From Promethearchaeota archaeon (lineage in GTDB: Archaea; Asgardarchaeota; Heimdallarchaeia; Hodarchaeales; Hodarchaeaceae), in NCBI GenBank assembly GCA_048938105.1, contig JBHLMN010000006.1:64001-128000 (forward strand): a DNA stretch of 64,000 nucleotides, given 5' to 3'. Made by a program: the position numbers and the translations under genes. Below are positions 15,457-43,758 of this stretch, piece by piece. Position 1 is the first letter of the stretch. Each line of letters opens with the position of its first letter. The notes under the pieces were generated by a model. That model made no database searches, was not told the origin of the DNA, and worked only from the letters and a program-made list of their open reading frames with translations.

Positions 15457-16881
15457 TTAGATAGCACGAGCTTCTTCCATTTTTTTTTCAAACTGAGTCT
15501 GCCATATTGGGTAATCAGTTGGATTATCAGGATATTCTGTAAACAGTTTCTCGAAGAATTGGGCTCCTTTGAGTATTTTGTAAAGCTGAAGGAGAATACC
15601 ATATCGAGGAAAGGATTTGATACCAATTGTTAATTTCTCGCTGAATCCCAGCGCTTTCCCTGCGTGTAGATTTACAAATTGTTCTTGATTCAATATTTTC
15701 CTCTTTAGTAAGAATTCAACTCCTGAAACCTTGATTCGCCGTAAAGCTGCGGTGAATAGTTGTACTTTGGTGTGACTAAGACCGAAATGTTTCATAATAT
15801 CAACATTATACTGCCATAACTGTTTTTCAGAAACGTCGTTCACCTCAATCGCTTCTGCTGTTGCCTTTCCAGCATAATAACCTGCAGTCAGCGCTGGGCC
15901 GTGTCCTTCTGCTGATAATGGATTTACATGAAATGCAGCGTCACCTGCAGTCAAAAATCCTGATGCTACAGCATTCGTCATTGGATAACGAGTCGGTATG
16001 GTGTAACCTCCTTTCTCTTCTACCTCGTACGAGCCAGGAGGATAATAATATTTGTGTAAAACTTCCCAAAAACGTTCTTTCATTCCTCTCATTCTAGGTT
16101 CAAGAAACCAACCAATTCCAACATTAAGTCGTTTTGAACCTTTAGTAAAGACCCAAAAATAACCAGGTTCAGGGATTTCTTTGCGATAGATCAAAAAAAT
16201 CTTATTATGATAAGGATGATCTTCTCCTTTTAATCTAATAATTTCACGATAAGAAACAGCAACATCTCGCTTCTCCATCGTCTTTTCAAGAAAAGGAAAG
16301 CCATCTTTTGGGAGAGTTTTACGTATTTGGAAATTTCTGCCAGAACAATCAATTGTAATTCTCGCTCGGATTTCGTATGTTTGTTTGTTCTTTCTATCCT
16401 CAACTACTGCTCCTTTTACGACATCAGCGTCAGTGATCGCCTTAATACCTTTGGTCTCTGGTCGTACTTCAACACCATATTCTTCAGCTGTCCTCAAAAG
16501 CCGCTGACCATAGGGGTGACGATTTAGAACATAACCATCCCCTCGTATCGGAAAATCAGCTTTAGTTGTTTTAAATATTAAATGCTCTACAAAATCGGCA
16601 ACTTCTTCCCCGTGAGGCTTTTCAATACCTAGCTTCTCTTCTAGGAATGTCGCTGGTGCCAAATTTAACGCATCACCACAAACTTTGTTTCCGATTTCTT
16701 CATGTGCTTTTGCATCAATCAAAATTACATCTCGACCCATTTTAGCTGCTGTTAAAGCCGAAATTACCCCTGCAGGGCCCCCACCAACAACTAAAACCTC
16801 AGTTTCTACCATAACATTCACACCAAGCGTAGGAGGAGGCAATGACTTATCAGTTAAAAACTCCTCACCTTTATTTCTCAT
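15457..16881 (-). CDS. Geranylgeranyl reductase family FAD oxidoreductase (DGGGPL reductase-like)
   Basis: VVGGGPAG, KVCGDA, PGYFWVF, NVGIG, GDAAFHVNPLSAEGHG. Confidence 0.88.
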   Translation of the reverse strand: MRNKGEEFLTDKSLPPPTLGVNVMVETEVLVVGGGPAGVISALTAAKMGRDVILIDAKAHEEIGNKVCGDALNLAPATFLEEKLGIEKPHGEEVADFVEHLIFKTTKADFPIRGDGYVLNRHPYGQRLLRTAEEYGVEVRPETKGIKAITDADVVKGAVVEDRKNKQTYEIRARITIDCSGRNFQIRKTLPKDGFPFLEKTMEKRDVAVSYREIIRLKGEDHPYHNKIFLIYRKEIPEPGYFWVFTKGSKRLNVGIGWFLEPRMRGMKERFWEVLHKYYYPPGSYEVEEKGGYTIPTRYPMTNAVASGFLTAGDAAFHVNPLSAEGHGPALTAGYYAGKATAEAIEVNDVSEKQLWQYNVDIMKHFGLSHTKVQLFTAALRRIKVSGVEFLLKRKILNQEQFVNLHAGKALGFSEKLTIGIKSFPRYGILLQLYKILKGAQFFEKLFTEYPDNPTDYPIWQTQFEKKMEEARAI

Positions 16882-17007
16882 CTTTCAATCATAAGTTTAG
16901 AAGTATATTTTTCCCTGAATAAGTCTGGTTTCGCAAAATATCAACGGTATAATATCTAACATAATCCTTATAATTTCTGGATATTGGGAAAAATCCGGTT
17001 TATTCGA

Positions 17008-17928
17008 ATGGCTAAACATGATCGTTTGATAACGTTGAAAGAGGCGGTGATTTATTCCAATCATGTAGAGGAAAACATCCGCCTACAGATCGAACGAGGT
17101 GCATTGAAAAAATATGATAAAAAGGGAAATCTACTGGAAGATCCTTTAAGAGTGAAAGGTTTCTTTAAACTATCTGAATTGATGTCAGTTTATGATATAA
17201 AGGATCCTGAGGCTGTTAAAAAACGTTTTCTTTCACGAAAGATCAGGAGGGATAGTGCTAAGAATATAAATCCCAAAACAACAGTCTTACTACGATCCTT
17301 TGAAATGAATAACTTGAAGAAAGTGATGGATAATAGTATTGATACTTGGATTCTTTCACCAAGATTCACATTAAACGAAAAGGAGGATAAAGTAACATAT
17401 AGTGAGATTTCTAAATCACTAGTTTTAAGAGAAGTTCATAGTTACTTGAAAGAATCCCAGCGGATTCTAAGACCTAAGGGCAATGTCATAATCCATTCCA
17501 TTCCACGATTTCTCCCTTATTTTGGTCTACAACTTAATAAGTTGGGATTTTTCTTTAAATACTGGATTGTTTATCCAAAGAAAAATTCAATTCAGCAAAA
17601 TTTGAAGAAATTTGTCCCCTTAGCAAATGGAATTCTTTATTATGTAAAATCTCCCAAGAATTTTAGGATTAATCGTGTAAGGATACCTTATCGGCATTGT
17701 TCTTTCTGTAATGAACCACTAAAGGATTATGGTGGAAAAAAACACCTAAGACATGTAGATGGAATGGTTTTGTCAGATATATGGCATTTAGATCACAATC
17801 CTACAGACCAAAATCTACCCTCTGAAATCTCTTCCTTTATTTTAAGACGATTAATTGATCTTTCTTGTACATCAGAGTCGTCCCTGCTACTTGCGCCATT
17901 TGATGGAGAAATTTCTAATGAATTTTGA
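17008..17928 (+). CDS. HTH-fused, degenerate beta-class N4/N6 DNA methyltransferase
   Basis: N-terminal LITLKEA...IRLQIERGALKKY HTH-like segment; MTase body (RILRPKG, CSFC..KDYGGKKH, LSDIW, LRRLIDLS), but motif IV reads ILSPRF and motif I LAPFDG. ATG at 17008 preferred over TTG at 16984. Confidence 0.75.
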   Translation: MAKHDRLITLKEAVIYSNHVEENIRLQIERGALKKYDKKGNLLEDPLRVKGFFKLSELMSVYDIKDPEAVKKRFLSRKIRRDSAKNINPKTTVLLRSFEMNNLKKVMDNSIDTWILSPRFTLNEKEDKVTYSEISKSLVLREVHSYLKESQRILRPKGNVIIHSIPRFLPYFGLQLNKLGFFFKYWIVYPKKNSIQQNLKKFVPLANGILYYVKSPKNFRINRVRIPYRHCSFCNEPLKDYGGKKHLRHVDGMVLSDIWHLDHNPTDQNLPSEISSFILRRLIDLSCTSESSLLLAPFDGEISNEF

Positions 17929-18718
17929 AAATTCCATAATTACTGGGGATTGCATTGAAGAAATGAAGAAATTACCCTCTGAGATTGTTGATCTCGCATT
18001 TGCAGACCCTCCTTACAATTTAGAGAAAGATTATGGAATATATGAGGATTCCAATACCGCAGGTAACTATATCAACTGGACAGAGAAATGGTTAACCGAA
18101 ATTATACGGTTATTGAAGCCAGATGGGTCTTTTTATTTATTAAATCTTCCAAAATGGACTCTATATCATGCTGTGTTTTTAGATCAATTTTTGTATCGTC
18201 AGAATACAATTGCATGGGATGCTTTATCCACACCCCGAGGTAAGATAATGCCAGCTCATTATTCTTTACTTTATTATACCAAATCACCTCATGAATATAC
18301 CTTTAACAAATTAACCACAAAGCACAATTGGACGCATTGCGCCCGTGTAAAGTGTATTAAGCAACGAAATGCATCTTCATTAGTCGAACAGCCATTTTCA
18401 GACATTTGGACTAATATTTATAGAGTCAAACACCGAAGAAAGAGACATGCCCATCATCCTACCCAATTACCATTAACATTTATGGAAAGAATAATCTTAA
18501 CCTCTTCTAATGAAGGAGATATGGTATTCGATCCATTTCTTGGTGTAGGAACAACTACAATTGTAGCTAAACTCCTAAGACGAAAGTTCTTAGGTATTGA
18601 AATCAACCCTGTATATGTTCAAGAATCACTTAGAAAATTAAACCAAGTCTCATCATATCAGTCTCGTCTTGAATTTCAAAATAAACAACAAATAATGGAT
18701 CTTGAAAGATTTCTTTAA
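17918..18718 (+). CDS. Beta-class N4/N6 DNA methyltransferase
   Basis: IITGDCIEEM, FADPPYN (motif IV), HPTQLP, VFDPFLGVGTT (motif I), GIEINP. ATG at 17918 overlaps the previous gene by 11 nt. Confidence 0.93.
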   Translation: MNFENSIITGDCIEEMKKLPSEIVDLAFADPPYNLEKDYGIYEDSNTAGNYINWTEKWLTEIIRLLKPDGSFYLLNLPKWTLYHAVFLDQFLYRQNTIAWDALSTPRGKIMPAHYSLLYYTKSPHEYTFNKLTTKHNWTHCARVKCIKQRNASSLVEQPFSDIWTNIYRVKHRRKRHAHHPTQLPLTFMERIILTSSNEGDMVFDPFLGVGTTTIVAKLLRRKFLGIEINPVYVQESLRKLNQVSSYQSRLEFQNKQQIMDLERFL

Positions 18719-18765: not shown

Positions 18766-20691
18766 GTGAATCCTAGTTTTAAAAAAAATCCACCTGGTGA
18801 GCATTATACACCACAGGTTTTAGCTCAATTTGTGGTTTGGTTTGCTTTTCAACAATTTTTTCGTCAACGATTACCTGATGATCAATGGGTTGAATCTTTT
18901 GTTCGATTTTCAGAAGGATTAATTCCTAAAATACCATCAAATGACTCAACATATCTACAAATGCAGAATCACACCAAAAACATTAAGATCCTAGACTTAG
19001 GGGCAGGAGACGGAGCTTTCCTATTAGCAACAGCTAGATTTCTTGAAAATCTTTATCGAAACGCAAACTCAACGGATTTTAAAGAACTAAAACTAAATAT
19101 ATTTGATAAGTGTATCTTTGGAGTTGATTATAATCCTCAAGCAGTTCATTCCTGTCGTGAGGATCTCAAAAAATGGATTCTAGATGATGGTTACTCTGAT
19201 CACAACCCTATTTTTACTGAAAAAGTAGAAAAATGCGTTGGACATCAAATAAGAACTGGAAATGTTTTACTTGGAGACATTCGCCTAGATAACCAAAAGA
19301 GCGTCTCAATAATAGAGTTTAATGAAGAATATAAAAAAAGAAGAATTTTTCATTGGCATAAAGAGTTTCCAAAGATTTTTACTAGTAAAAATTCAGGTTT
19401 TGACCTAATCCTATGCAATCCACCATATGTAACAAAGGATATCTCACCTGAGGATAACCGTCTTTATAGGAAATTGTATCGGGAGCAATTATTTGTTAAC
19501 CGTTTTAATTTATATCATCTATTCTTCGCTAGAGTGAATGATCTATTAGCTCCAAAAGGTATTGCAGTATTCTTAACTTCTAACTCTGTACTGACTGATA
19601 ATTACAGTTCAAAAGTACGAAGGTTTCTTCTTTCTCATTTTCATATTAATTCAATCATTGATTTTGTTAGTCGAACTCGGATTTTTCCAAATGTCCTCCA
19701 AGGAACTTGTATCTTAGTTATGCTTAAGAAAAATGGGACTTCTAAGCAAAAAACTCGAATTATTCGGACATTCGATATGAAATCTTTAATTCAAGGTGAA
19801 ATTGTTGAAAGATGCATTCCTACAACCCAATTATTTCACTTTAGGAAATTTATTCCCTCTCCATTTTCAAACACATTTAAAATTTTAACACATTTAAGGA
19901 AAAACACAATTCGACTAAAAAATCATTTTAAAATCCAAAGTGGGGAAATTAGACCTGCAGATAAAAAGATCAGATCTTATTACTTCAAAGAGATACCTAA
20001 AAACCTAAAGCCCTCAGACTTCGAGATTATATTAAATGGAAAAAATATTTCTCCTTATGTTATTAATCTCAAAGAAAATCGTGTGAAAGCTAGATGGTAT
20101 TTAAGACCTGAGAATGAGAATGAACGTATTTTTCGAGAAAAGCACACCCAAATTCCTCGAATTGTGTTTCAAAGGATTACAGCTAGAGAACAGTTACGTC
20201 GAGTTGTTGCAGGGAAGATTGATCAAGTTCACATTAACAATAATAAGCGAATTTGGGTTGAAAATAATGCTAATTATTTACTCCTTAATCATGATTTCCC
20301 ATCTAAATTGTTGTTATCAGCAGAGGCATTACTAGGAATCTTTAATTCACTCTTAATTAACTGGTACATACATCAAGTTAATTTAACAGCAGCTATCCCA
20401 CCAGCAGATTTGGAACTTATCCCTCTTCCTCTGAAAAAGCCTGAGAAACATAATCAATGGCAATTACTCCATCAAAGGGTAAATTCCATTCAGAAACTTC
20501 TCCAGAAATATTCTTCATCTTCAGAAATACTAACGTATCTTTGTCCTGTTTGTACATCCAGTGGAGAAATAAGTCAACTTCAATCAGATATAGATAGCTT
20601 AGTATTCCAACTTTATGAATTGCCTGAAAATTATCAGAATGAAATAATAAAACAATTAACTCAACATCATCAATACTTTAGCAATCATTAA
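18766..20691 (+). CDS. Gamma-class N6-adenine DNA methyltransferase (TaqI/Eco57I-like with C-terminal TRD), no nuclease domain
   Basis: GEHYTP, ILDLGAGDGAFL, FHWHKEFP, FDLILCNPPY, LLGIFNS, IDSLVFQLYEL. Confidence 0.9.
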   Translation: MNPSFKKNPPGEHYTPQVLAQFVVWFAFQQFFRQRLPDDQWVESFVRFSEGLIPKIPSNDSTYLQMQNHTKNIKILDLGAGDGAFLLATARFLENLYRNANSTDFKELKLNIFDKCIFGVDYNPQAVHSCREDLKKWILDDGYSDHNPIFTEKVEKCVGHQIRTGNVLLGDIRLDNQKSVSIIEFNEEYKKRRIFHWHKEFPKIFTSKNSGFDLILCNPPYVTKDISPEDNRLYRKLYREQLFVNRFNLYHLFFARVNDLLAPKGIAVFLTSNSVLTDNYSSKVRRFLLSHFHINSIIDFVSRTRIFPNVLQGTCILVMLKKNGTSKQKTRIIRTFDMKSLIQGEIVERCIPTTQLFHFRKFIPSPFSNTFKILTHLRKNTIRLKNHFKIQSGEIRPADKKIRSYYFKEIPKNLKPSDFEIILNGKNISPYVINLKENRVKARWYLRPENENERIFREKHTQIPRIVFQRITAREQLRRVVAGKIDQVHINNNKRIWVENNANYLLLNHDFPSKLLLSAEALLGIFNSLLINWYIHQVNLTAAIPPADLELIPLPLKKPEKHNQWQLLHQRVNSIQKLLQKYSSSSEILTYLCPVCTSSGEISQLQSDIDSLVFQLYELPENYQNEIIKQLTQHHQYFSNH

Positions 20692-37665: not shown

Positions 37666-39837
37666 TTATAGCGCTGCTAAGCTCTCTAAAGCATCATTCA
37701 GGAGAAAAGGTTTGGATTTGAAGCTGATATTTGGATAATATTGTGTGTAATACTTCAAACCCACACCCAGTTGAATCACAAACTGATCTTCTCTTGAAAG
37801 TGATTCTCCATTATTATCCAAAGATTGGAGTTTAAAGTCAATGGTGTTTTTCACTGTAGGTACTAATTCTTCCCACAATATGGAAGCTGATTCTTTTAAG
37901 CGATTTCTACAAACAAAGATGACATCAAATTCAATACTCCTTTTCCCTCGAATCTGGGTACTGGTTTCCATCTCCGCTCGAACAGGGTAAACCGCTGTGA
38001 TATAGAATTGATTTTCTAGCAGACTTTCTATTATCGAAGCCCATGCTTTCAGCTGCTTATGATGGAACGTGAATATCAACAGTCCTTCTTTTTTCAACAC
38101 TCTTTGGATTTCTGCAAAAACAGCTTTAAGCCCTTGTTGATAATCCTCATCATGTTTTCCGATTTTAATGTTTTTCACAATTTCAGCTTTCTTTGGTGTT
38201 AAAGCTGGTTTAAACCAGGGATAATACTCTTTCAGGCCTAGCTGTAACCAAACGTAATAGAAATCTGATAATTCTGCATATTGGACATTATCATAATAAG
38301 GGGGATCTGTTATGACCAAATCTACGCTATTTTGAGGAATGTGAATTTCTTGGGAGGAGTGACAATAAAGATAGACATTTCTTGATGGTTCTTGTTCTAA
38401 TTCGGAATAAGATGAGACTACCTGAGCATTGATCTGACGTGTCATCTCTTGACGTTTAGCTTTTCCATCTTTAGCAATGTAATATTCGTACGGTTTTTGA
38501 CAGTATTTCTTTATTCGTATAGTTTTAGCGAAGAAGTTCTTGAACGTTCCTGTGCCATATTTAGCTGTACCAAAGACATTGTTTTCAACTGGATTCAAGG
38601 TGGCTGGAAAAGCATGTTTGCGAAACAAATTATAGATGTAATGGTTCTTTCTATGATATTCACAAAGCAGGTTATTGTATTCCAGAGCGGTTGAAAACGT
38701 AATAAGAAAGAATTCTTTCAAATTTTGGTCTTGAATTTGTAGAATCTCCCTCAATAGTTTTCCTAGCGATAATAGTTGTCTGCTGTTAAACATATCAGTA
38801 AAAAACTGAAATTTGTGGTTAAGTAACTCCTGAGTTTTTGCCCCAATGGGAATAGCTTGTTGAGGAAGGGGTAATTGTTTTTGAATCGACTTGAATTCGT
38901 GACATGCTTGGTGATAAAGTTTGAAATCATTTTGATCAGCTTGTTTGTAACCTCGTGTATTACAAGCAGAGCAGTGATACTCGAGAGCATACAACCGTTC
39001 ATTAGGTCTTCCCTGTTTTGTGCTGACGTCTACTATCTTGGCTGTATGCCCACAGTGGGAACAATAATACTTTCCCCGTTTTACTATAAATGAAAATGGA
39101 TCAAAAGACCAACCACATTTTGGACAGAGAAGATTCTTTTGAGTCAATTCCTGGAAAATTGTTTCACATTTTGGACAGAGAAAGTAAGCTTTAGAGACTT
39201 CTTTCCGATTATTTGCAAATATATAACTTCGAAATAGAGGATTAAATTCTAAACATTGTTCACATTGAATTTCTTTCACCCAGAAGAAATACATAACATC
39301 CGCTTGTTGTGAACAATGTCCACATTGGGTCTTATAATATTTGGAAAGTTCATTCCTTAGCTTAGAAGACAGTTTTTCGAACTTAATTTGGAGGTCATCA
39401 ATATTAACATCTTCCAATGCTTTTTTCACTGTAAACCAAGCAACAGGATTCAAATCTCCTCCAATAATACCCCCGAATCCTAAACGCGAAGCTTCAATGA
39501 CTGTTGTTCCTCCTCCCATAAAAGGATCTAACACTAAAAGATCCTGAAAATTATGTTCTAGTAGGTAGATATCCCAAAAATCCTCCTCATATGGAATACT
39601 ATGATCCTTAAATGGAGTAGCCTTATCTTCTACTATCCTTGTTGAAGAAGAAAGTGATGCAAAAATGAGGATAGATCTAAATACTGACCCTAAACGTCGA
39701 GCAAACCATTTATGAAGAGTTAGAATAGGACGATAATATCTCTTTGCGTTACTCTCTTTATAAGCTATCTCACTGACTTTTGTGAATGGAAAATAACTCT
39801 CAATTGCTTTTTCTGATAATTTTGCTTGTTGGTTCAT
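37666..39837 (-). CDS. Adenine-specific DNA methyltransferase with Zn ribbons (COG1743/DUF1156-like)
   Basis: LHKWFARR, LDPFMGGGT, several CxxC pairs, FNSRQL, ITDPPYYDNVQYAELSDFYYVW, FTFHHK. Confidence 0.92.
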   Translation of the reverse strand: MNQQAKLSEKAIESYFPFTKVSEIAYKESNAKRYYRPILTLHKWFARRLGSVFRSILIFASLSSSTRIVEDKATPFKDHSIPYEEDFWDIYLLEHNFQDLLVLDPFMGGGTTVIEASRLGFGGIIGGDLNPVAWFTVKKALEDVNIDDLQIKFEKLSSKLRNELSKYYKTQCGHCSQQADVMYFFWVKEIQCEQCLEFNPLFRSYIFANNRKEVSKAYFLCPKCETIFQELTQKNLLCPKCGWSFDPFSFIVKRGKYYCSHCGHTAKIVDVSTKQGRPNERLYALEYHCSACNTRGYKQADQNDFKLYHQACHEFKSIQKQLPLPQQAIPIGAKTQELLNHKFQFFTDMFNSRQLLSLGKLLREILQIQDQNLKEFFLITFSTALEYNNLLCEYHRKNHYIYNLFRKHAFPATLNPVENNVFGTAKYGTGTFKNFFAKTIRIKKYCQKPYEYYIAKDGKAKRQEMTRQINAQVVSSYSELEQEPSRNVYLYCHSSQEIHIPQNSVDLVITDPPYYDNVQYAELSDFYYVWLQLGLKEYYPWFKPALTPKKAEIVKNIKIGKHDEDYQQGLKAVFAEIQRVLKKEGLLIFTFHHKQLKAWASIIESLLENQFYITAVYPVRAEMETSTQIRGKRSIEFDVIFVCRNRLKESASILWEELVPTVKNTIDFKLQSLDNNGESLSREDQFVIQLGVGLKYYTQYYPNISFKSKPFLLNDALESLAAL

Positions 39838-39862
39838 GCTTTTATTCCATCAATTGCCATTA

Positions 39863-40906
39863 TCATGTATAAAGTGCAACAAAGAATTCTCCTAGTAAGT
39901 TGAAGATCACATAGATAATTGCAGAAAAGAGTGCTGATATCGGTGTTGTAATGACCCAACTTATTCCTATTTCTTTGAGACTGTCCTTATCTACTTTCTC
40001 TTTATTTACAAAACCAACTCCAATAAAAGCAGCAACTAGAATATGTGATCCAGACAAGGGAATAGCCATTAATGTACCAAAGAACATGATTAGACTAACA
40101 GAGATGCTAGCCGCTAATGCTGATGTTGGAGAAAGTGCTACAATATCATTTGCAAGTTTTTTCACTACTCTTCTACCAAGGAATATGACCCCAAAGCACA
40201 TTCCTAATCCACCAGCGATTAATGCTAAATACAGTCCAGTTATAGGAAATGGTCCAACCATGTATGTTTCCATCACAAAATCTTCGATTGCCATAAGAGG
40301 ACCAATGGCTTTGGCTACATCATTACCACTTCGAGAAAAAACTGAAATGAGTAAAAAAACTGCTAAGGCATAGAAAGCTACCTTTTCTTGTCTTTCATAA
40401 TCCGCATAACCCTTTGTTTTAACTGATTGTCGAAGTTTTATGATTAATGCGTAAAAAAGAAACCCTCCAACAAGTCCGATAAGAGGACTTACAACCCAAC
40501 TGAGTAGAACCCAAAAGAGAGTATCATAATTCAAAGATATTAATCCCCATTCAATGAGAGCAACCCCTATGACGCTTCCGACAACTGATTGGGTTGTACT
40601 AATCGGAACTCCTTTCAATGATACAATAAACAGCCAGAGAGCCATTGAGATTAGTACAACAAACACCATTGATAGAGAAAGAGCATACTCAGGGGTAGTG
40701 AACTTATTCCCCACTGTCTTTGACACAGATTCTCCTAAGAAAAAAACACCAATAAAATTAAATAGACCACCGATGAGGACAGCAACGCTCAATGAAAGTA
40801 AACCAGCACCTACTGCTGGAGTCATGGTTTCGTCGTTTGCTCCAATCGTGAATGCGACAACAAAACCAAGAAGAAGAGCGGCACCTATAATGATCAGTGC
40901 AGTCAA
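39863..40906 (-). CDS. Inorganic phosphate transporter (PiT family)
   Basis: GANDET and GNDVAKAIGP PiT signatures, PISTTQ, PLSGSH. TTG at 40906 with an AGGTG RBS is preferred to 40930. Confidence 0.93.
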   Translation of the reverse strand: MTALIIIGAALLLGFVVAFTIGANDETMTPAVGAGLLSLSVAVLIGGLFNFIGVFFLGESVSKTVGNKFTTPEYALSLSMVFVVLISMALWLFIVSLKGVPISTTQSVVGSVIGVALIEWGLISLNYDTLFWVLLSWVVSPLIGLVGGFLFYALIIKLRQSVKTKGYADYERQEKVAFYALAVFLLISVFSRSGNDVAKAIGPLMAIEDFVMETYMVGPFPITGLYLALIAGGLGMCFGVIFLGRRVVKKLANDIVALSPTSALAASISVSLIMFFGTLMAIPLSGSHILVAAFIGVGFVNKEKVDKDSLKEIGISWVITTPISALFSAIIYVIFNLLGEFFVALYT

Positions 40907-40926
40907 GGTATTACACCTACAATCAA

Positions 40927-41580
40927 TCAACTATGTTTGGCTATGAGCACTTTTAAGTAATCAGTCCCTTGCTCTGCTTCAATGCTAATACGAGTAGTGG
41001 CGTTAAGTATTCGACTTGTACCGCGTGGAAGTTCGTCGTTCACTATCTTTTCTGAGATAGTATAGAAAAGATCTCGTACTTCATCCCTTTTTTCTTCTAC
41101 CTTACGTGCAAGCTGTGATGCTTTTTCATAATCATTGAAAAAGAGTTTATTAGCTTCGACAAAGTCTTCGATCACATCCTCAGTCAAGTCTACTATTCTA
41201 TCGAGTTCGGGAGGAAAATAGCTAGCATCAATTTTTTTAATACAAACTATTCGAACTGCCCTTTCAATCCGATCTAATAGGTGATCTGCATTCAACATCA
41301 TATTGTAGCGTTCCTCAGTGATTTGAGGAAGATAAGCCTTTTTCTTGAAAATTGTTTCGAAGAAGATGTCTTTTACTTCGTCTGCATCCCTTTCAAGCTG
41401 AATTATTTCATCTCTTAACGCAAGACCTCTTTCAAAATCCCCTCCTCTCCAAGCTTTCAATGCTTTTTCGAATTTATCATAAGCTTCTTCTATTGCTTCA
41501 ACAAGCTTAATAAATAACTCTGTTCCCTTTTTATGTATATCTTTATCCTTCAATAATTGTCCAAAGTATTCTCCAGTCAT
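40927..41580 (-). CDS. DUF47/PhoU-like phosphate transport regulator
   Basis: IIQLERDADEVK...YLPQITEER and a second repeat KVEEKRDEV; directly upstream of pit; ATG at 41580. Confidence 0.88.
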   Translation of the reverse strand: MTGEYFGQLLKDKDIHKKGTELFIKLVEAIEEAYDKFEKALKAWRGGDFERGLALRDEIIQLERDADEVKDIFFETIFKKKAYLPQITEERYNMMLNADHLLDRIERAVRIVCIKKIDASYFPPELDRIVDLTEDVIEDFVEANKLFFNDYEKASQLARKVEEKRDEVRDLFYTISEKIVNDELPRGTSRILNATTRISIEAEQGTDYLKVLIAKHS

Positions 41581-41658
41581 GAAAATCACTTCTATTATGC
41601 TTTTATTAGTCTCGTTAAAAGGATTCTTCAACAGTCACTATTTTGTCTCTTAAGAAGA

Positions 41659-43758
41659 TTACATTTTAATGCCTTTTAGATGATTAAATATATTTGATAA
41701 AATTTCTTCTAGGTTTACTAAAGGATCTCGGTTATAATTTTCAGCAATTTTTGGTAGAAACATTGAGAAAATTTCTTCCCAAGTGGCTACATTCTGGTTT
41801 TGCATTGGAGATGTCGAACTATCTTCTACCTTCCTGATTACCTCCAGTTCTAAGCTCTTCCAATCCATTGATTCCTTTAAGTGTATTTTCGTAGGTGTTT
41901 TCCGACAAATAAGTATAATATCAAAATTTCTTCCTTTAACAGGCCGGGCACGAAACTCACTCTGAACTGGAAATGCTGCAGTTATCTGAAACAAGCTACA
42001 CTTTAATGCCTCAAGAATCATCATCCATGCTGTAACATTAGAGTGGTGAAAAGTAAAAACCATTGGAGCATCTGGTTTTAACACTTTATAACATTCTTGA
42101 AAGATTCTTGTTATTTTTTCAAGGAATTTTTCTTTTTCTCGTGATGTACTCACTTCTCGATCGGTAGGGATGAGAGCTGAACGAAAAAAAGGATATTGAG
42201 AGGTTAAGACTATCTTAAGCCAGACATAGAAAAAATTTGCCAATTCAGAGTATTGAATATAATTAAAATAAGGAGGATCGGTCACTATAATATCAACAGA
42301 AGCCTGAGGAATACCCAATCTCTGAAGATTTTCTGAAGTGTCAGCTATAAGTAAAGTATCAGCTTTAGAACCTGCTTGTAACATCTGAAAAGTTTCAACT
42401 GAATTGGCCTCAATTTTATCTGCAGCAATGGGTATCCTTACAATCGTATTATTTTGAAAAGCTATTTCGAAAGGCGATTTGCAATATTCTTTTGCTTTCT
42501 TTATCCTCTCAAGGTAAGTAATGAATGTCCCATTCCCTTTTTTAGTTCCCCAGACGTTATTTTCTACATACATGGTTGGAACTAAAAAAGATTGGTAATT
42601 AAAGACGTTTACAATCTGTTTCATTGTATAGTTATAAGGACAGATAACTGTATGAAATTCTAAGCTACTTGAAAAAGCCATTAGAAGAAATTCTTTGATA
42701 TTTTGGTCTGATACTTGTGATATTGCCTTTAAAAGTAAACTTAAACTGAGTAATTGTCTTTCATTAAAGAGATCTGAAAATCGTTTGAAGCCATAATTTC
42801 TTAGATTTGATACGTTTTTCCCCTCTTCTGGTAATAGTTCTCGGGGAAATTGAAGATTATCCTCTCTTTTTCTGAATTCTCTCTGAACTTCTACAAATTT
42901 ATCTTTATCCCTCTCACTTGCTTGCTTATAATCGCGGGTTCCACACGCTTGACAGAAGAATTCAATAGCGATTTGTCTTGCTGATAAAGAATGTTCAGTT
43001 TGTTGAAGCAGCTCTAACAATCTATATTCTTTCTGACAATTAGTACAAGTGAACAGTTTCAACCGACAATTCCCCAATTTAGGAATAAAATCATGAGAAC
43101 ATGTGGGACAGGTTGACAGCTCATCAAGTTTTTCCATTGTATAAAATAAATTCTTACAACTAGGACAGATCACCATTGTAGCAGGGTCTTTTCGTTGTTT
43201 CTTACCTATGATGTAATATTTGAATAGATCTTCCTCGGAATGACAGGAAGGGCAAAAAATTGTACGTACCCAAAAAATATACATAATATCCGCATTCGAA
43301 GAGGCACAATTTGGACATACAGTTTTATAATAGGTTTTAATTTGACGACCTACACTTTGAAAGAGTTTCTCAACTTCTTGATCAAAAAGTTCAATGTTGA
43401 AAGGATCCATCTCCTTTTTCGTCGTCAACCAAGCGATTGGATTTACATCAATGCCAATTGTCTTGATTCCAAGACGATGAAGTTCGACAATAGTAGTTCC
43501 TCCACCACAGAAAGGATCTAGGGCGATTTTATCCCGAAAATCGTGATTTTGATAGAAAGCACCTTTTCCTGACCGATTTGGATCAAAAAGAACTTCTTGA
43601 CTAAATTGAGAAAGTCCTATTGCGCGTATTGTACTCCCGGGTCTGCGAGCCCAAGACTTGTGTATGGAATAGATAGGCCGATAAAATTGCCGTCTCTGTG
43701 ATTCTACTTTCGCTATTGGTTGAATAGCATCAAGAGGAAACTGTTCTTCAATTGTCAA
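41659..43758 (-). CDS. Adenine-specific DNA methyltransferase with Zn ribbons (COG1743/DUF1156-like), paralog of 37666..39837
   Basis: IHKSWARR, LDPFCGGGT, CxxC pairs, FNERQL, VTDPPYFNYIQYSELANFFYVW, FTFHH. Confidence 0.92.
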   Translation of the reverse strand: MTIEEQFPLDAIQPIAKVESQRRQFYRPIYSIHKSWARRPGSTIRAIGLSQFSQEVLFDPNRSGKGAFYQNHDFRDKIALDPFCGGGTTIVELHRLGIKTIGIDVNPIAWLTTKKEMDPFNIELFDQEVEKLFQSVGRQIKTYYKTVCPNCASSNADIMYIFWVRTIFCPSCHSEEDLFKYYIIGKKQRKDPATMVICPSCKNLFYTMEKLDELSTCPTCSHDFIPKLGNCRLKLFTCTNCQKEYRLLELLQQTEHSLSARQIAIEFFCQACGTRDYKQASERDKDKFVEVQREFRKREDNLQFPRELLPEEGKNVSNLRNYGFKRFSDLFNERQLLSLSLLLKAISQVSDQNIKEFLLMAFSSSLEFHTVICPYNYTMKQIVNVFNYQSFLVPTMYVENNVWGTKKGNGTFITYLERIKKAKEYCKSPFEIAFQNNTIVRIPIAADKIEANSVETFQMLQAGSKADTLLIADTSENLQRLGIPQASVDIIVTDPPYFNYIQYSELANFFYVWLKIVLTSQYPFFRSALIPTDREVSTSREKEKFLEKITRIFQECYKVLKPDAPMVFTFHHSNVTAWMMILEALKCSLFQITAAFPVQSEFRARPVKGRNFDIILICRKTPTKIHLKESMDWKSLELEVIRKVEDSSTSPMQNQNVATWEEIFSMFLPKIAENYNRDPLVNLEEILSNIFNHLKGIKM

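What the first reader, a model, noticed from the sequence alone, without database searches (positions are those of the whole stretch)
17008..18718. Pseudo-methyltransferase plus intact beta-class MTase: a possible reader/writer heterodimer reminiscent of METTL14/METTL3
Seen: the first gene has an N-terminal HTH-like domain and a full Cys-containing TRD (CSFC..KDYGGKKH) but has lost the catalytic motif (ILSPRF for D/SPPY) and the SAM-binding motif (LAPFDG, with the protein ending right after). Its frame is intact and overlaps by 11 nt an MTase with intact DPPY and DPFLGVG. Known: beta-class MTases such as EcoP15I Mod work as dimers that split recognition and catalysis, and METTL3/METTL14 is an active/inactive pair. 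Inference: a maintained inactive targeting or regulatory subunit.
Basis: partly seen in the sequence, partly recalled or inferred. Interest (0 to 1): 0.75.

Follow-up and report, generated by a model that had tools for sequence, protein, structure and literature searches.

The report
Dead-plus-live split DNA methyltransferase pair
Two overlapping genes in this Asgard (Hodarchaeales) archaeon encode a working DNA methyltransferase and a conserved, catalytically dead, shortened copy of the same fold with a DNA-binding head; in hundreds of bacteria the same two parts are one protein, so they most likely act as one two-part enzyme.

Summary
Gene 1 (17008-17928) is a beta-class N6/N4 methyltransferase fold. 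It has no catalytic D/N/S-PP-Y/F motif (SPRF instead) and stops inside the SAM loop (LAPFDG). Gene 2 (17918-18718) is intact and overlaps it by 11 nt.

Gene 1 is not decaying. Orthologues down to about 40% identity keep the dead motifs, the truncation and the overlap. dN/dS is about 0.2 overall and 0.02-0.1 in the N-terminal head and the CxxC...KDYGGKKH knuckle. In the 21 genomes of the genus searched, including this one, genes 1 and 2 are present together or absent together.

The strongest evidence is a fused form. At least 593 loci in genomes of many phyla, almost all bacterial, encode one protein of about 570 aa. It has a dead N-terminal module (0 of 98 with motif IV or FxGxG), then a live module about 50% identical to gene 2. 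Its AlphaFold model is confident (pTM 0.90). These genes often sit beside BanI- or DpnII-like restriction enzymes.

The best reading is a hard-wired asymmetric version of the beta-class methyltransferase dimer, here split, without a restriction enzyme, and stably inherited. METTL3/METTL14 is an analogy, not kinship. "Reader" is unsupported. No complex or activity was tested. This scan had already reached the same reading on orthologous pairs in other genomes.

The parts
16882..17007 (.). Divergent intergenic region between the geranylgeranyl reductase gene (minus strand) and gene 1. It holds an A/T-rich TATA-like box (CTTATAATTT) conserved in the closest orthologues.
   Evidence: Alignment of upstream regions. 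The only inverted repeat is 9 nt with 70 nt between the arms, so no operator-like palindrome was found.
17008..17928 (+). Gene 1: a 306-aa pseudo-methyltransferase. It has an N-terminal winged-HTH-like head followed by a truncated, catalytically dead beta-class MTase module.
   Evidence: PF01555 at 39.9 bits, profile positions 2-189/221. Best solved relative is M.MboIIA, E 1.2e-13 and Z 11.6. There are 37 homologues of 180-343 aa, those named by their sources coming from Hodarchaeales, Heimdall-group or other Asgard MAGs. dN/dS is about 0.15-0.25.
17008..17277 (+). N-terminal head (residues 1-90) with the motif EENIRLQIERG; probably a MerR/excisionase-type winged HTH.
   Evidence: Block-mean pLDDT about 78-93 over residues 11-70. 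VIA hits to Xis 4j2n_A (Z 5.5) and CbpM 3ucs_B (Z 5.6). Weak Atlas lead to HTH_17. No Pfam hit. dN/dS about 0.06-0.19.
17356..17367 (+). Dead motif IV: SPRF in place of (D/N/S)PP(Y/F).
   Evidence: Alignments. In the orthologues this position reads SPKF, FPRY, FPKY, APKF, SPEF, APSF or FFPY, so the first residue is not conserved. dN/dS of this half is 0.18-0.58.
17698..17784 (+). CxxC-x11-HxxH knuckle plus SDIW (CSFCNEPLKDYGGKKHLRH ... SDIW). This is the most conserved part, a probable zinc-binding and DNA-facing loop of the target-recognition region.
   Evidence: Invariant C231, C234, K239-K245, H249, S256, D257 and W259 in 35 homologues. The same motif is invariant in the dead module of 98 fused proteins. 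dN/dS is 0.02-0.10. Zinc binding is inferred, not tested.
17890..17928 (+). Remnant of motif I (LAPFDG) and the end of gene 1. The codons for FDGE (GATGGAG) also form a Shine-Dalgarno-like GGAG 11-14 nt before the start of gene 2.
   Evidence: GATGGAG is conserved in 8 of 9 orthologous junctions.
17918..18718 (+). Gene 2: an intact 266-aa beta-class DNA amino-methyltransferase (DPPY at residues 30-33, HPTQLP at 180-185, DPFLGVG at 205-211).
   Evidence: PF01555 at 158.9 bits, full length. NCBIfam PRK11524 (below its cut-off) and CcrM-type models. About 50% identical to the live C-terminal module of the fused proteins. In the tree it nests among those modules.
18766..20691 (+). Gene 3: a 641-aa gamma-class N6-adenine MTase (Eco57I-type catalytic domain with NPPY, plus a TaqI_C specificity domain). 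No nuclease domain was detected. It lies next to genes 1 and 2 in most orthologous loci.
   Evidence: PF07669 at 2.5e-28 and PF12950 at 6.6e-8. Found downstream of gene 2 in the loci of G003, G005, G009, G011, G012, G014, G015 and G020.

Best explanation
Genes 1 and 2 encode the two halves of one DNA methyltransferase built as a permanent asymmetric pair. Gene 2 binds SAM and transfers the methyl group. Gene 1 is a paralogous module that lost the catalytic motif and half of the SAM-binding Rossmann fold. It kept the dimer-forming core and a strongly conserved CxxC...KDYGGKKH...SDxW loop, and it carries a winged-HTH head. It probably takes the place of the second, catalytically idle protomer of the usual beta-class MTase homodimer. 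In that role it would hold or shape the DNA (the non-target strand or flanking DNA) and stabilise the live subunit. The conserved 11-20 nt overlap, with a GGAG inside the last codons of gene 1, would couple translation so that both parts are made together. In most relatives the two modules are one polypeptide with a C-terminal HNH_repeat tail, serving type II restriction systems. Here the gene is split, the tail is gone, an HTH sits on the dead subunit, and no restriction enzyme was detected next to it. The pair is inherited with a third (gamma-class) MTase beside a housekeeping gene, so it most likely acts as an orphan modification system. Shown: the sequence features, the conservation, the co-occurrence and the fusions. 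Inferred: the complex, the role in DNA binding, the zinc site and the orphan status.
For: 1. Purifying selection. Whole-gene dN/dS is 0.15-0.25 for the closer pairs. It is 0.06-0.19 in the head and 0.02-0.10 in the knuckle region, but 0.18-0.58 in the former catalytic half.
2. The dead motifs and the truncation are kept in all homologues down to 38-42% identity.
3. Strict co-occurrence. Eleven genomes of the genus, including this one, have both genes adjacent. One more has gene 1 cut by a contig end. The other nine have neither.
4. The overlap is conserved at 11, 17 or 20 nt.
5. Rosetta-stone fusions. There are 38 fused sequences among the proteins fetched, nearly all from the best 150 HMMER hits (34 distinct clusters plus 4 near-identical members of one of them), and at least 593 loci in species genomes. 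All 98 fused proteins examined have the knuckle. None has motif IV or FxGxG in the N module. All 98 have a (D/N/S)PP(Y/F/W) motif (DPPY or DPPF in those listed) in the C module.
6. Gene 2 is about 50% identical to the fused C modules and nests among them. Gene 1 groups with the dead N modules, nearest to that of P0041, whose C module is in turn nearest gene 2. Dead and live modules are separated by one branch with SH-aLRT 100.
7. The dead module of P0041 ends ...VAAYDGEP, at the same point where gene 1 ends ...LAPFDGE.
8. The AlphaFold model of the fused protein P0039 has mean pLDDT 89 and pTM 0.90 across both modules, with only the linker uncertain. This indicates a fixed mutual arrangement.
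9. Published structures show that beta-class MTases generally dimerise. In CcrM, one protomer's active site faces away from the DNA while its accessory domain binds the non-target strand (PMC6787082). In EcoP15I Mod2 only one protomer methylates (PMC4490356).
Against: No direct evidence of a gene 1-gene 2 complex was obtained. Gene 2 looks complete and might work alone or as a homodimer. The gene 1 model itself is mediocre (mean pLDDT 67, knuckle region below 50). The head could serve gene regulation instead of targeting. One split relative (P0043) carries an XRE-type HTH, the type used by restriction-modification controller proteins. The tree is a quick search with SH-aLRT support only, because the careful search did not finish. 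The conserved FDGE may be constrained partly as a ribosome-binding site rather than as protein.
Confidence: 0.7

Rival explanations
1. Gene 1 is mainly a transcription factor, analogous to a restriction-modification controller protein. Its HTH would bind the operon promoter, and the dead MTase body would act as a sensor or dimerisation domain. It would control when genes 2 and 3 are made, and would not take part in catalysis.
For: The N-terminal winged-HTH-like head is under strong constraint. A split relative, P0043, carries an XRE-type HTH on the same dead module. Gene 1 is the first gene of the operon.
Against: Most family members are fusions without any HTH on the dead module, so the conserved function of the dead module cannot be HTH-driven regulation. 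No operator-like palindrome or broadly conserved element was found upstream. The two roles are not exclusive.
Confidence: 0.12
2. Gene 1 binds gene 2 but acts as a brake. It would form a less active heterodimer that limits or times methylation, rather than enabling or targeting it.
For: The co-occurrence, overlap and fusion evidence for association is the same as for the best explanation. Inactive paralogues can regulate in either direction in other methyltransferase families (review PMC10908127).
Against: A permanent covalent fusion to an inhibitor in at least 593 loci, many beside a restriction enzyme whose host must be fully protected, is hard to reconcile with inhibition.
Confidence: 0.07
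3. Gene 1 works on its own as a DNA-binding protein, for example a reader of methylated or unmethylated sites or a nucleoid protein. It would be merely co-transcribed with the methyltransferases.
For: It keeps DNA-facing loops of the MTase fold and has an HTH.
Against: The natural fusions, the confident two-module model and the exact co-occurrence with gene 2 point to joint action. Nothing tested speaks for methyl-mark recognition.
Confidence: 0.06
4. Gene 1 is a recently broken duplicate of a methyltransferase gene, that is, a pseudogene in decay.
For: It has lost catalytic and SAM-binding motifs, and its match to the family profile is weak.
Against: The frame is intact in every orthologue, the same truncation point is kept at 38-75% identity, and dN/dS is about 0.2 and as low as 0.02 in places.
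Confidence: 0.01

Closest known systems
Homodimeric beta-class DNA amino-methyltransferases with division of labour (CcrM, M.MboIIA, M.BceJIV, M.RsrI; EcoP15I Mod2)
   Same: Both genes have this fold and the same permuted motif order. These are the best sequence and structure matches: M.MboIIA at E 1.2e-13 and Z 11.6 for gene 1, and Z 28.4 for the live module of the fused form. Dimer formation is reported as conserved in beta-class enzymes. In EcoP15I Mod2 only one protomer methylates (PMC4490356).
   Different: In those enzymes the two protomers are identical and both could catalyse. Here the idle partner is a separate paralogue that cannot bind SAM or catalyse. It is truncated after strand beta-1 and has its own conserved CxxC knuckle and an HTH head.
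Fused dead-plus-live MTases of bacterial type II restriction-modification loci (unnamed; for example P0039, P0041, P0045, loci L025-L104)
   Same: They have the same two modules in the same order. The dead module has the knuckle and no motif IV or FxGxG. The live module is about 50% identical to gene 2. The dead module ends at the same point.
   Different: They are one polypeptide of about 530-650 aa, mostly with a C-terminal HNH_repeat tail and no N-terminal HTH. Many are adjacent to BanI-family (16 of 80 loci) or DpnII-like (23 of 80 loci) restriction enzymes. I found no paper describing this family, but REBASE could not be consulted.
METTL3-METTL14 and ciliate MTA1-MTA9 (MT-A70 family active/inactive pairs); DNMT3A-DNMT3L
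   Same: The design is the same: an active methyltransferase paired with a catalytically dead paralogue that supports substrate binding (review PMC10908127; my own knowledge for details). There is distant fold similarity, with Z 8.4 to METTL14 and Z 9.2 to chain D of the TthMTA1-PteMTA9 complex.
   Different: They belong to a different family (MT-A70, not PF01555). There is no sequence-level kinship and no evidence of descent, and their substrates and partner proteins are eukaryotic. The resemblance is convergent.
Split or multi-subunit prokaryotic MTases (M.AquI and M.EcoHK31I two-polypeptide C5 enzymes; type I HsdM-HsdS; M.AhdI M2S2); from my own knowledge, not tested here
   Same: Methylation needs two different polypeptides encoded by adjacent or overlapping genes.
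   Different: In those systems the second polypeptide is either a piece of one catalytic domain or a dedicated specificity subunit. It is not a dead copy of the whole MTase fold.

Membership tests
Beta-class N6/N4 DNA amino-methyltransferase (PF01555), gene 1 | MTase fold with beta-class order (motifs IV-VIII, target-recognition region, then X and I) | tested here: met
   PF01555 at 39.9 bits against a cut-off of 26.7. M.MboIIA at E 1.2e-13. Foldseek and VIA best hits are M.MboIIA, M.BceJIV and CcrM.
Beta-class N6/N4 DNA amino-methyltransferase (PF01555), gene 1 | Catalytic motif IV (D/N/S)PP(Y/F/W) | tested here: not met
   SPRF at residues 117-120. The orthologues read FPRY, APKF, APSF and similar, with the first residue not conserved.
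Beta-class N6/N4 DNA amino-methyltransferase (PF01555), gene 1 | SAM-binding motif I (FxGxG) followed by motifs II-III | tested here: not met
   LAPFDGE and then a stop. Profile positions 190-221 are absent. The same truncation is seen in all homologues.
Beta-class N6/N4 DNA amino-methyltransferase (PF01555), gene 2 | Full-length domain with motif IV and motif I | tested here: met
   158.9 bits over positions 1-219 of 221, with DPPY, HPTQLP and DPFLGVG. Enzyme activity and the target base (m6A or m4C) were not tested.
Dead-plus-live two-module MTase family (fused in bacteria) | Dead module with the CxxC...D(W/Y)GGK knuckle and without motif IV or FxGxG | tested here: met
   Gene 1 has CSFC...KDYGGKKH. 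All 98 fused members examined show the same pattern.
Dead-plus-live two-module MTase family (fused in bacteria) | Live module of the same subfamily immediately downstream of the dead module | tested here: met
   Gene 2 overlaps gene 1. It is about 50% identical to the fused C modules and nests among them in the tree.
Dead-plus-live two-module MTase family (fused in bacteria) | Single polypeptide with a C-terminal HNH_repeat tail | tested here: not met
   Here there are two genes. Gene 2 ends about 25 residues after the MTase domain, and Pfam finds no HNH_repeat in it, whereas the fused forms have one. This is therefore a split variant.
Type II restriction-modification system | Cognate restriction endonuclease encoded next to the methyltransferase | tested here: inconclusive
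   Of the flanking genes, only the membrane protein downstream of gene 3 was scanned, and it has no Pfam match. The upstream reductase and tryptophanase-like genes are named from their translated sequences, not from a family scan. Neighbours in two syntenic genomes have no nuclease match or no match at all. PF24447 was not found in this genome, but the control genomes also gave nothing. Restriction enzymes are often unrecognisable by profile.
MT-A70 family (METTL3/METTL14, MTA1/MTA9) | MT-A70 domain detectable by sequence | tested here: not met
   No MT-A70 family appears among the Pfam matches of gene 1 or gene 2 at E up to 0.1. Gene 1 matches only PF01555, and gene 2 matches PF01555 strongly plus three weak sub-threshold methyltransferase families. 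Structural Z to METTL14 is 8.4, below the 11.6 to M.MboIIA.
Restriction-modification controller (C) proteins | Small XRE-type HTH protein acting on a palindromic operator in its own promoter | tested here: not met
   The head has no HTH_3/XRE match and resembles Xis/MerR-type folds instead. No operator-like palindrome was found upstream. DNA binding itself was not tested.

The most novel reading that the evidence does not exclude
A large, so far undescribed class of prokaryotic DNA methyltransferases is built as a hard-wired asymmetric pair, with a dead zinc-knuckle paralogue fixed to a live catalytic module. These enzymes serve type II restriction systems in many bacterial phyla. In one Hodarchaeales genus the enzyme has been split into two translationally coupled subunits, freed from restriction, given a sequence-reading HTH on the dead subunit, and kept as a chromosomal epigenetic writer. 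This would be an independent prokaryotic invention of the METTL3/METTL14-type design.
Probability: 0.4. Interest if true: 0.75.

Novelty: new variant of a known kind. Interest (0 to 1): 0.6.

Why it matters
Active/inactive methyltransferase pairs are textbook biology for eukaryotes (METTL3-METTL14, DNMT3A-DNMT3L, MTA1-MTA9). I could not find them described for prokaryotic DNA methyltransferases. If the reading holds, a pseudo-enzyme partner is a common, ancient solution in bacterial restriction-modification enzymes. It would fix in the genome the asymmetry already seen in CcrM and EcoP15I homodimers. The family would offer simple, crystallisable models, fused or split, for how a dead protomer contributes to target recognition. 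It would also improve annotation, because the dead genes are currently labelled 'DNA methyltransferase' or 'hypothetical'. Finally, it adds an apparently orphan three-methyltransferase cluster to the little that is known of DNA modification in the archaeal lineage closest to eukaryotes.

Tried and rejected
The gene neighbourhoods of the distant split relatives (P0035, P0037, P0038, P0040, P0043) could therefore not be read.
- The gene 1 head has no usable Pfam match. The Atlas search gave only sub-threshold leads, with scores of 0.76-0.77.
- No relative of gene 1 was found in the phage collection. The fused form was not found in the plasmid collection, where only single-domain MTases matched.
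- Literature searches for a described dead-plus-live prokaryotic DNA MTase, for BanI/GGYRCC methylases and for 'pseudo-dimer' MTases found nothing relevant. Many subscription journals and REBASE are outside that library.
- I looked for an operator palindrome or a conserved regulatory element upstream of gene 1. I found only a TATA-like box shared by the closest species and a 9-nt repeat with distant arms.
- The search for a BanI-family nuclease in this genome found none, but the control genomes gave nothing either, so it is uninformative.
- The careful maximum-likelihood tree did not finish in two 300-s runs. Only the quick tree is reported.
- Model coordinates are not exposed, so the interface between the modules of the fused model could not be measured.
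- A programmed frameshift that would fuse genes 1 and 2 was considered, because gene 2 is always in the +1 frame. There is no evidence for it.
Full report
WHAT IS THERE. Three genes lie head to tail on the plus strand. Gene 1 is at 17008-17928 (306 aa). Gene 2 is at 17918-18718 (266 aa). Gene 3 is at 18766-20691 (641 aa). They diverge from a geranylgeranyl-reductase gene at 15457-16881 on the minus strand.

Pfam places genes 1 and 2 in PF01555, the beta-class N6/N4 DNA methylase family. Gene 2 scores 158.9 bits over the whole profile. Gene 1 scores only 39.9 bits and stops at profile position 189 of 221. Gene 3 is a gamma-class Eco57I-type adenine methylase with a TaqI_C specificity domain and no detected nuclease domain.

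Pairwise and profile alignments locate the motifs. SPRF (residues 117-120) stands where gene 2 has DPPY. LAPFDG (295-300) stands where gene 2 has DPFLGVG. Gene 1 ends six residues later, so the helix and strands that complete the SAM pocket are missing. The HPTQxP element of gene 2 is also lost in gene 1. The genes overlap by 11 nt.

IT IS NOT A DECAYING GENE. Names given to close homologues place the organism in the Hodarchaeales, within the Asgard archaea.
- Gene 1 orthologues were found in 11 of 20 other genomes of the genus, at 42-75% identity. All have open frames of about 304-313 aa. A weak match in a twelfth genome is to an ordinary methylase.
- The large protein collection adds 36 homologues down to 38% identity.
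- Every one lacks a catalytic Asp/Asn/Ser at motif IV, where they read SPKF, FPRY, APKF, APSF or FFPY. Every complete one ends at ...LLLAPFDGE or a close variant.
- For the least saturated species pairs, dN/dS is 0.15-0.25 over the whole gene, against about 0.11 for gene 2.
- By region, dN/dS is 0.06-0.19 in the N-terminal head and 0.02-0.10 in the CxxC...KDYGGKKH...SDxW segment. It is 0.18-0.58 in the former catalytic half.
Selection thus protects the head and the knuckle, not the old active site.

GENES 1 AND 2 TRAVEL TOGETHER. A search of the genus with gene 2 found orthologues in 11 of the 21 genomes, including this one. All 11 also have gene 1. In 10 the two genes are directly adjacent on one contig. 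In G014 they lie at the ends of two different contigs. One further genome (G008) has gene 1 cut off by a contig end. The other nine have neither gene. The overlap is kept at 11, 17 or 20 nt. The codons for FDGE (GATGGAG) supply a GGAG 11-14 nt before the gene 2 start in 8 of 9 junctions. That suggests coupled translation. It also warns that this remnant of motif I may be conserved partly as a ribosome-binding site.

The block reductase / gene 1 / gene 2 / gene 3 is syntenic in three other genomes, even where the outer flanks differ. Base composition matches the surroundings. In two more distant species the pair sits elsewhere. There it is followed by a metallo-beta-lactamase-fold gene and a convergent gamma-class methylase.

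THE KEY RESULT: NATURAL FUSIONS. An exhaustive HMMER search with gene 1 found 252 proteins at E up to 0.001. Many are 500-660 aa long with two matched stretches. Reading them shows a fixed plan:
- an N-terminal module with FKYW, the CxxC...D(W/Y)GGK knuckle and SDVW, but no motif IV;
- a poorly conserved linker;
- a complete methylase module with DPPY, HPCQLP and GxGTT;
- usually a C-terminal HNH_repeat (Pfam).
Of 98 fused proteins with the knuckle, none has motif IV or FxGxG in the N module. All 98 have a (D/N/S)PP(Y/F/W) motif (DPPY or DPPF in those listed) in the C module.

Gene 2 is about 50% identical to those C modules. Those listed come from Chloroflexota, Verrucomicrobiota, Planctomycetota, Acidobacteriota, Cyanobacteria, Bacteroidota, Patescibacteria and others. 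Within the Asgard phylum, the split HTH-bearing form was found only in this genus. Three other Asgard genera have matches to gene 1 in long reading frames (about 500-590 aa in five of the six genomes), which suggests the fused form, but their motifs were not read.

A domain-level tree gave these results (quick IQ-TREE, SH-aLRT only):
- All 43 dead modules are separated from all 56 live modules by one branch with support 100.
- Gene 2 nests inside the live modules of the fused proteins, next to those of P0041 and P0045.
- Gene 1 and the other HTH-bearing split forms group with the dead module of P0041.
- The dead module of P0041 ends ...VAAYDGEP, at the same point where gene 1 ends.
The pair is therefore the split form of this family. 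Because the fused forms are far more diverse, a fission is more likely than a fusion, but the direction was not tested.

STRUCTURE. The gene 1 model is mediocre, with mean pLDDT 67 and the knuckle region below 50. Its body still matches M.MboIIA, M.BceJIV, CcrM and M.RsrI best. Its head aligns to the Pukovnik Xis and CbpM winged-HTH folds at Z about 5.5.

The fused protein P0039, modelled with 99 sequences, gives mean pLDDT 89 and pTM 0.90. Both modules score above 90 in most 10-residue blocks and only the linker is uncertain. That is not expected if the two modules tumbled freely. Its C module matches M.MboIIA at Z 28.4, and the first about 114 residues of its N module match a partial Rossmann methylase fold at Z about 7. 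No solved structure contains this two-module arrangement.

CONTEXT OF THE FUSED FORMS. I clustered the neighbours in 80 loci.
- A BanI-family restriction enzyme (PF24447, E about 1e-146) lies just upstream on the same strand in 16 loci.
- A 314-aa DpnII/BanI-like protein (PF04556, E 1.5e-5, weak) lies just downstream in 23 loci.
- Small unknown convergent genes occur in others.
The family therefore supplies the methylase of type II restriction-modification systems and acts on DNA. In this window and its syntenic relatives no nuclease was recognised. PADLOC models call genes 1 and 2 type II methylases, and call gene 3 a type II or IIG methylase part.

HOW IT MOST LIKELY WORKS. Published structures show that dimer formation is conserved among beta-class amino-methylases. 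In CcrM the methylase domain of one protomer recognises and methylates the target strand. The other protomer's active site faces away, and its accessory domain binds the non-target strand (PMC6787082). EcoP15I Mod2 likewise methylates with only one protomer (PMC4490356).

The family found here looks like that asymmetry made permanent. One protomer became a dead scaffold and DNA-binding module, and the other stayed the enzyme. In the Hodarchaeales version the accessory DNA-binding element (the HTH) sits on the dead subunit, as the working accessory domain does in CcrM's idle protomer. All of this is inference. Complex formation, zinc binding, the target sequence and the methylated base (DPPY does not decide between m6A and m4C) are untested.

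RIVALS. A controller-like regulatory role for the head is possible and not exclusive, since P0043 carries an XRE-type HTH. It cannot explain the dead module in HTH-less fusions, and no operator was found. An inhibitory partner is unlikely given permanent fusion beside restriction enzymes. A free-standing 'reader' has no support. Decay is refuted.

COMPARISON AND NOVELTY. By membership, gene 1 has the PF01555 fold but fails the two catalytic criteria, while gene 2 is a regular member. Neither gene is MT-A70, so METTL3/METTL14 and MTA1/MTA9 are analogies of design only. I found no paper describing a dead-plus-live prokaryotic DNA methylase. A review of intrafamily hetero-oligomers covers eukaryotic cases only, judging from its section headings (PMC10908127). 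REBASE could not be checked.

This scan had already noted orthologous pairs in other Hodarchaeales genomes, and follow-up agents reached the same reading. My analysis was done before I saw those notes and it agrees with them. I rate this a new variant of a known kind, of moderate to high interest.

Noticed in passing
window 18766-20691: A gamma-class Eco57I/TaqI_C adenine methyltransferase with no detected nuclease domain follows the pair. It is kept with the pair in most orthologous loci. The more distant species G001 has a different gamma-class MTase convergent nearby. Whether it cooperates with the pair, for example by modifying the other strand of an asymmetric site, is unknown.
   Followed up: partly
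G000 contig C31:43275-45707 (locus L121:223-2655): The same genome holds a second, unrelated tandem protein of 810 aa. It has a weak N-terminal PF01555 match without DPPY (DFGES in place of FxGxG), followed by a strong C-terminal match with DPPF and FFCGSGTT. Dead-plus-live fusions may therefore be a recurrent theme. The genome has 41 PF01555 matches in all.
   Followed up: partly
window about 37891-43533, minus strand: Several long ORFs (704-741 aa) carry PF01555 split into pieces (profile positions 1-110, 119-203, 182-213). They look like tandem Mod-like methyltransferases with inserted recognition domains.
   Followed up: no
window 17902-17908 (GATGGAG): The codons for the conserved FDGE remnant of motif I double as a Shine-Dalgarno-like GGAG for gene 2, in 8 of 9 orthologous junctions. 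Protein-level conservation of this remnant may be partly a nucleotide-level constraint.
   Followed up: partly
gene 2, window 18335-18472; alignment A3: In the fused family the live module has four near-invariant cysteines (WC..W, YCLR.SC, HPCQLP), which could form a second metal site. The main Hodarchaeales clade keeps only two of them (HCARVKC; T replaces C in INWTEKW and HPTQLP). The divergent G001 and G016 copies keep all four.
   Followed up: no
P0042, P0043 (proteins): The knuckle-type methylase body has been joined to different DNA-binding heads. P0042 has a LexA DNA-binding domain plus S24 peptidase fused to an active enzyme. P0043 has an XRE HTH on a dead truncated module.
   Followed up: partly
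window 15457-16881 and loci L022-L024: The geranylgeranyl reductase gene stays divergently paired with the methylase operon in four genomes, even where the other flanks are rearranged.
   Followed up: partly
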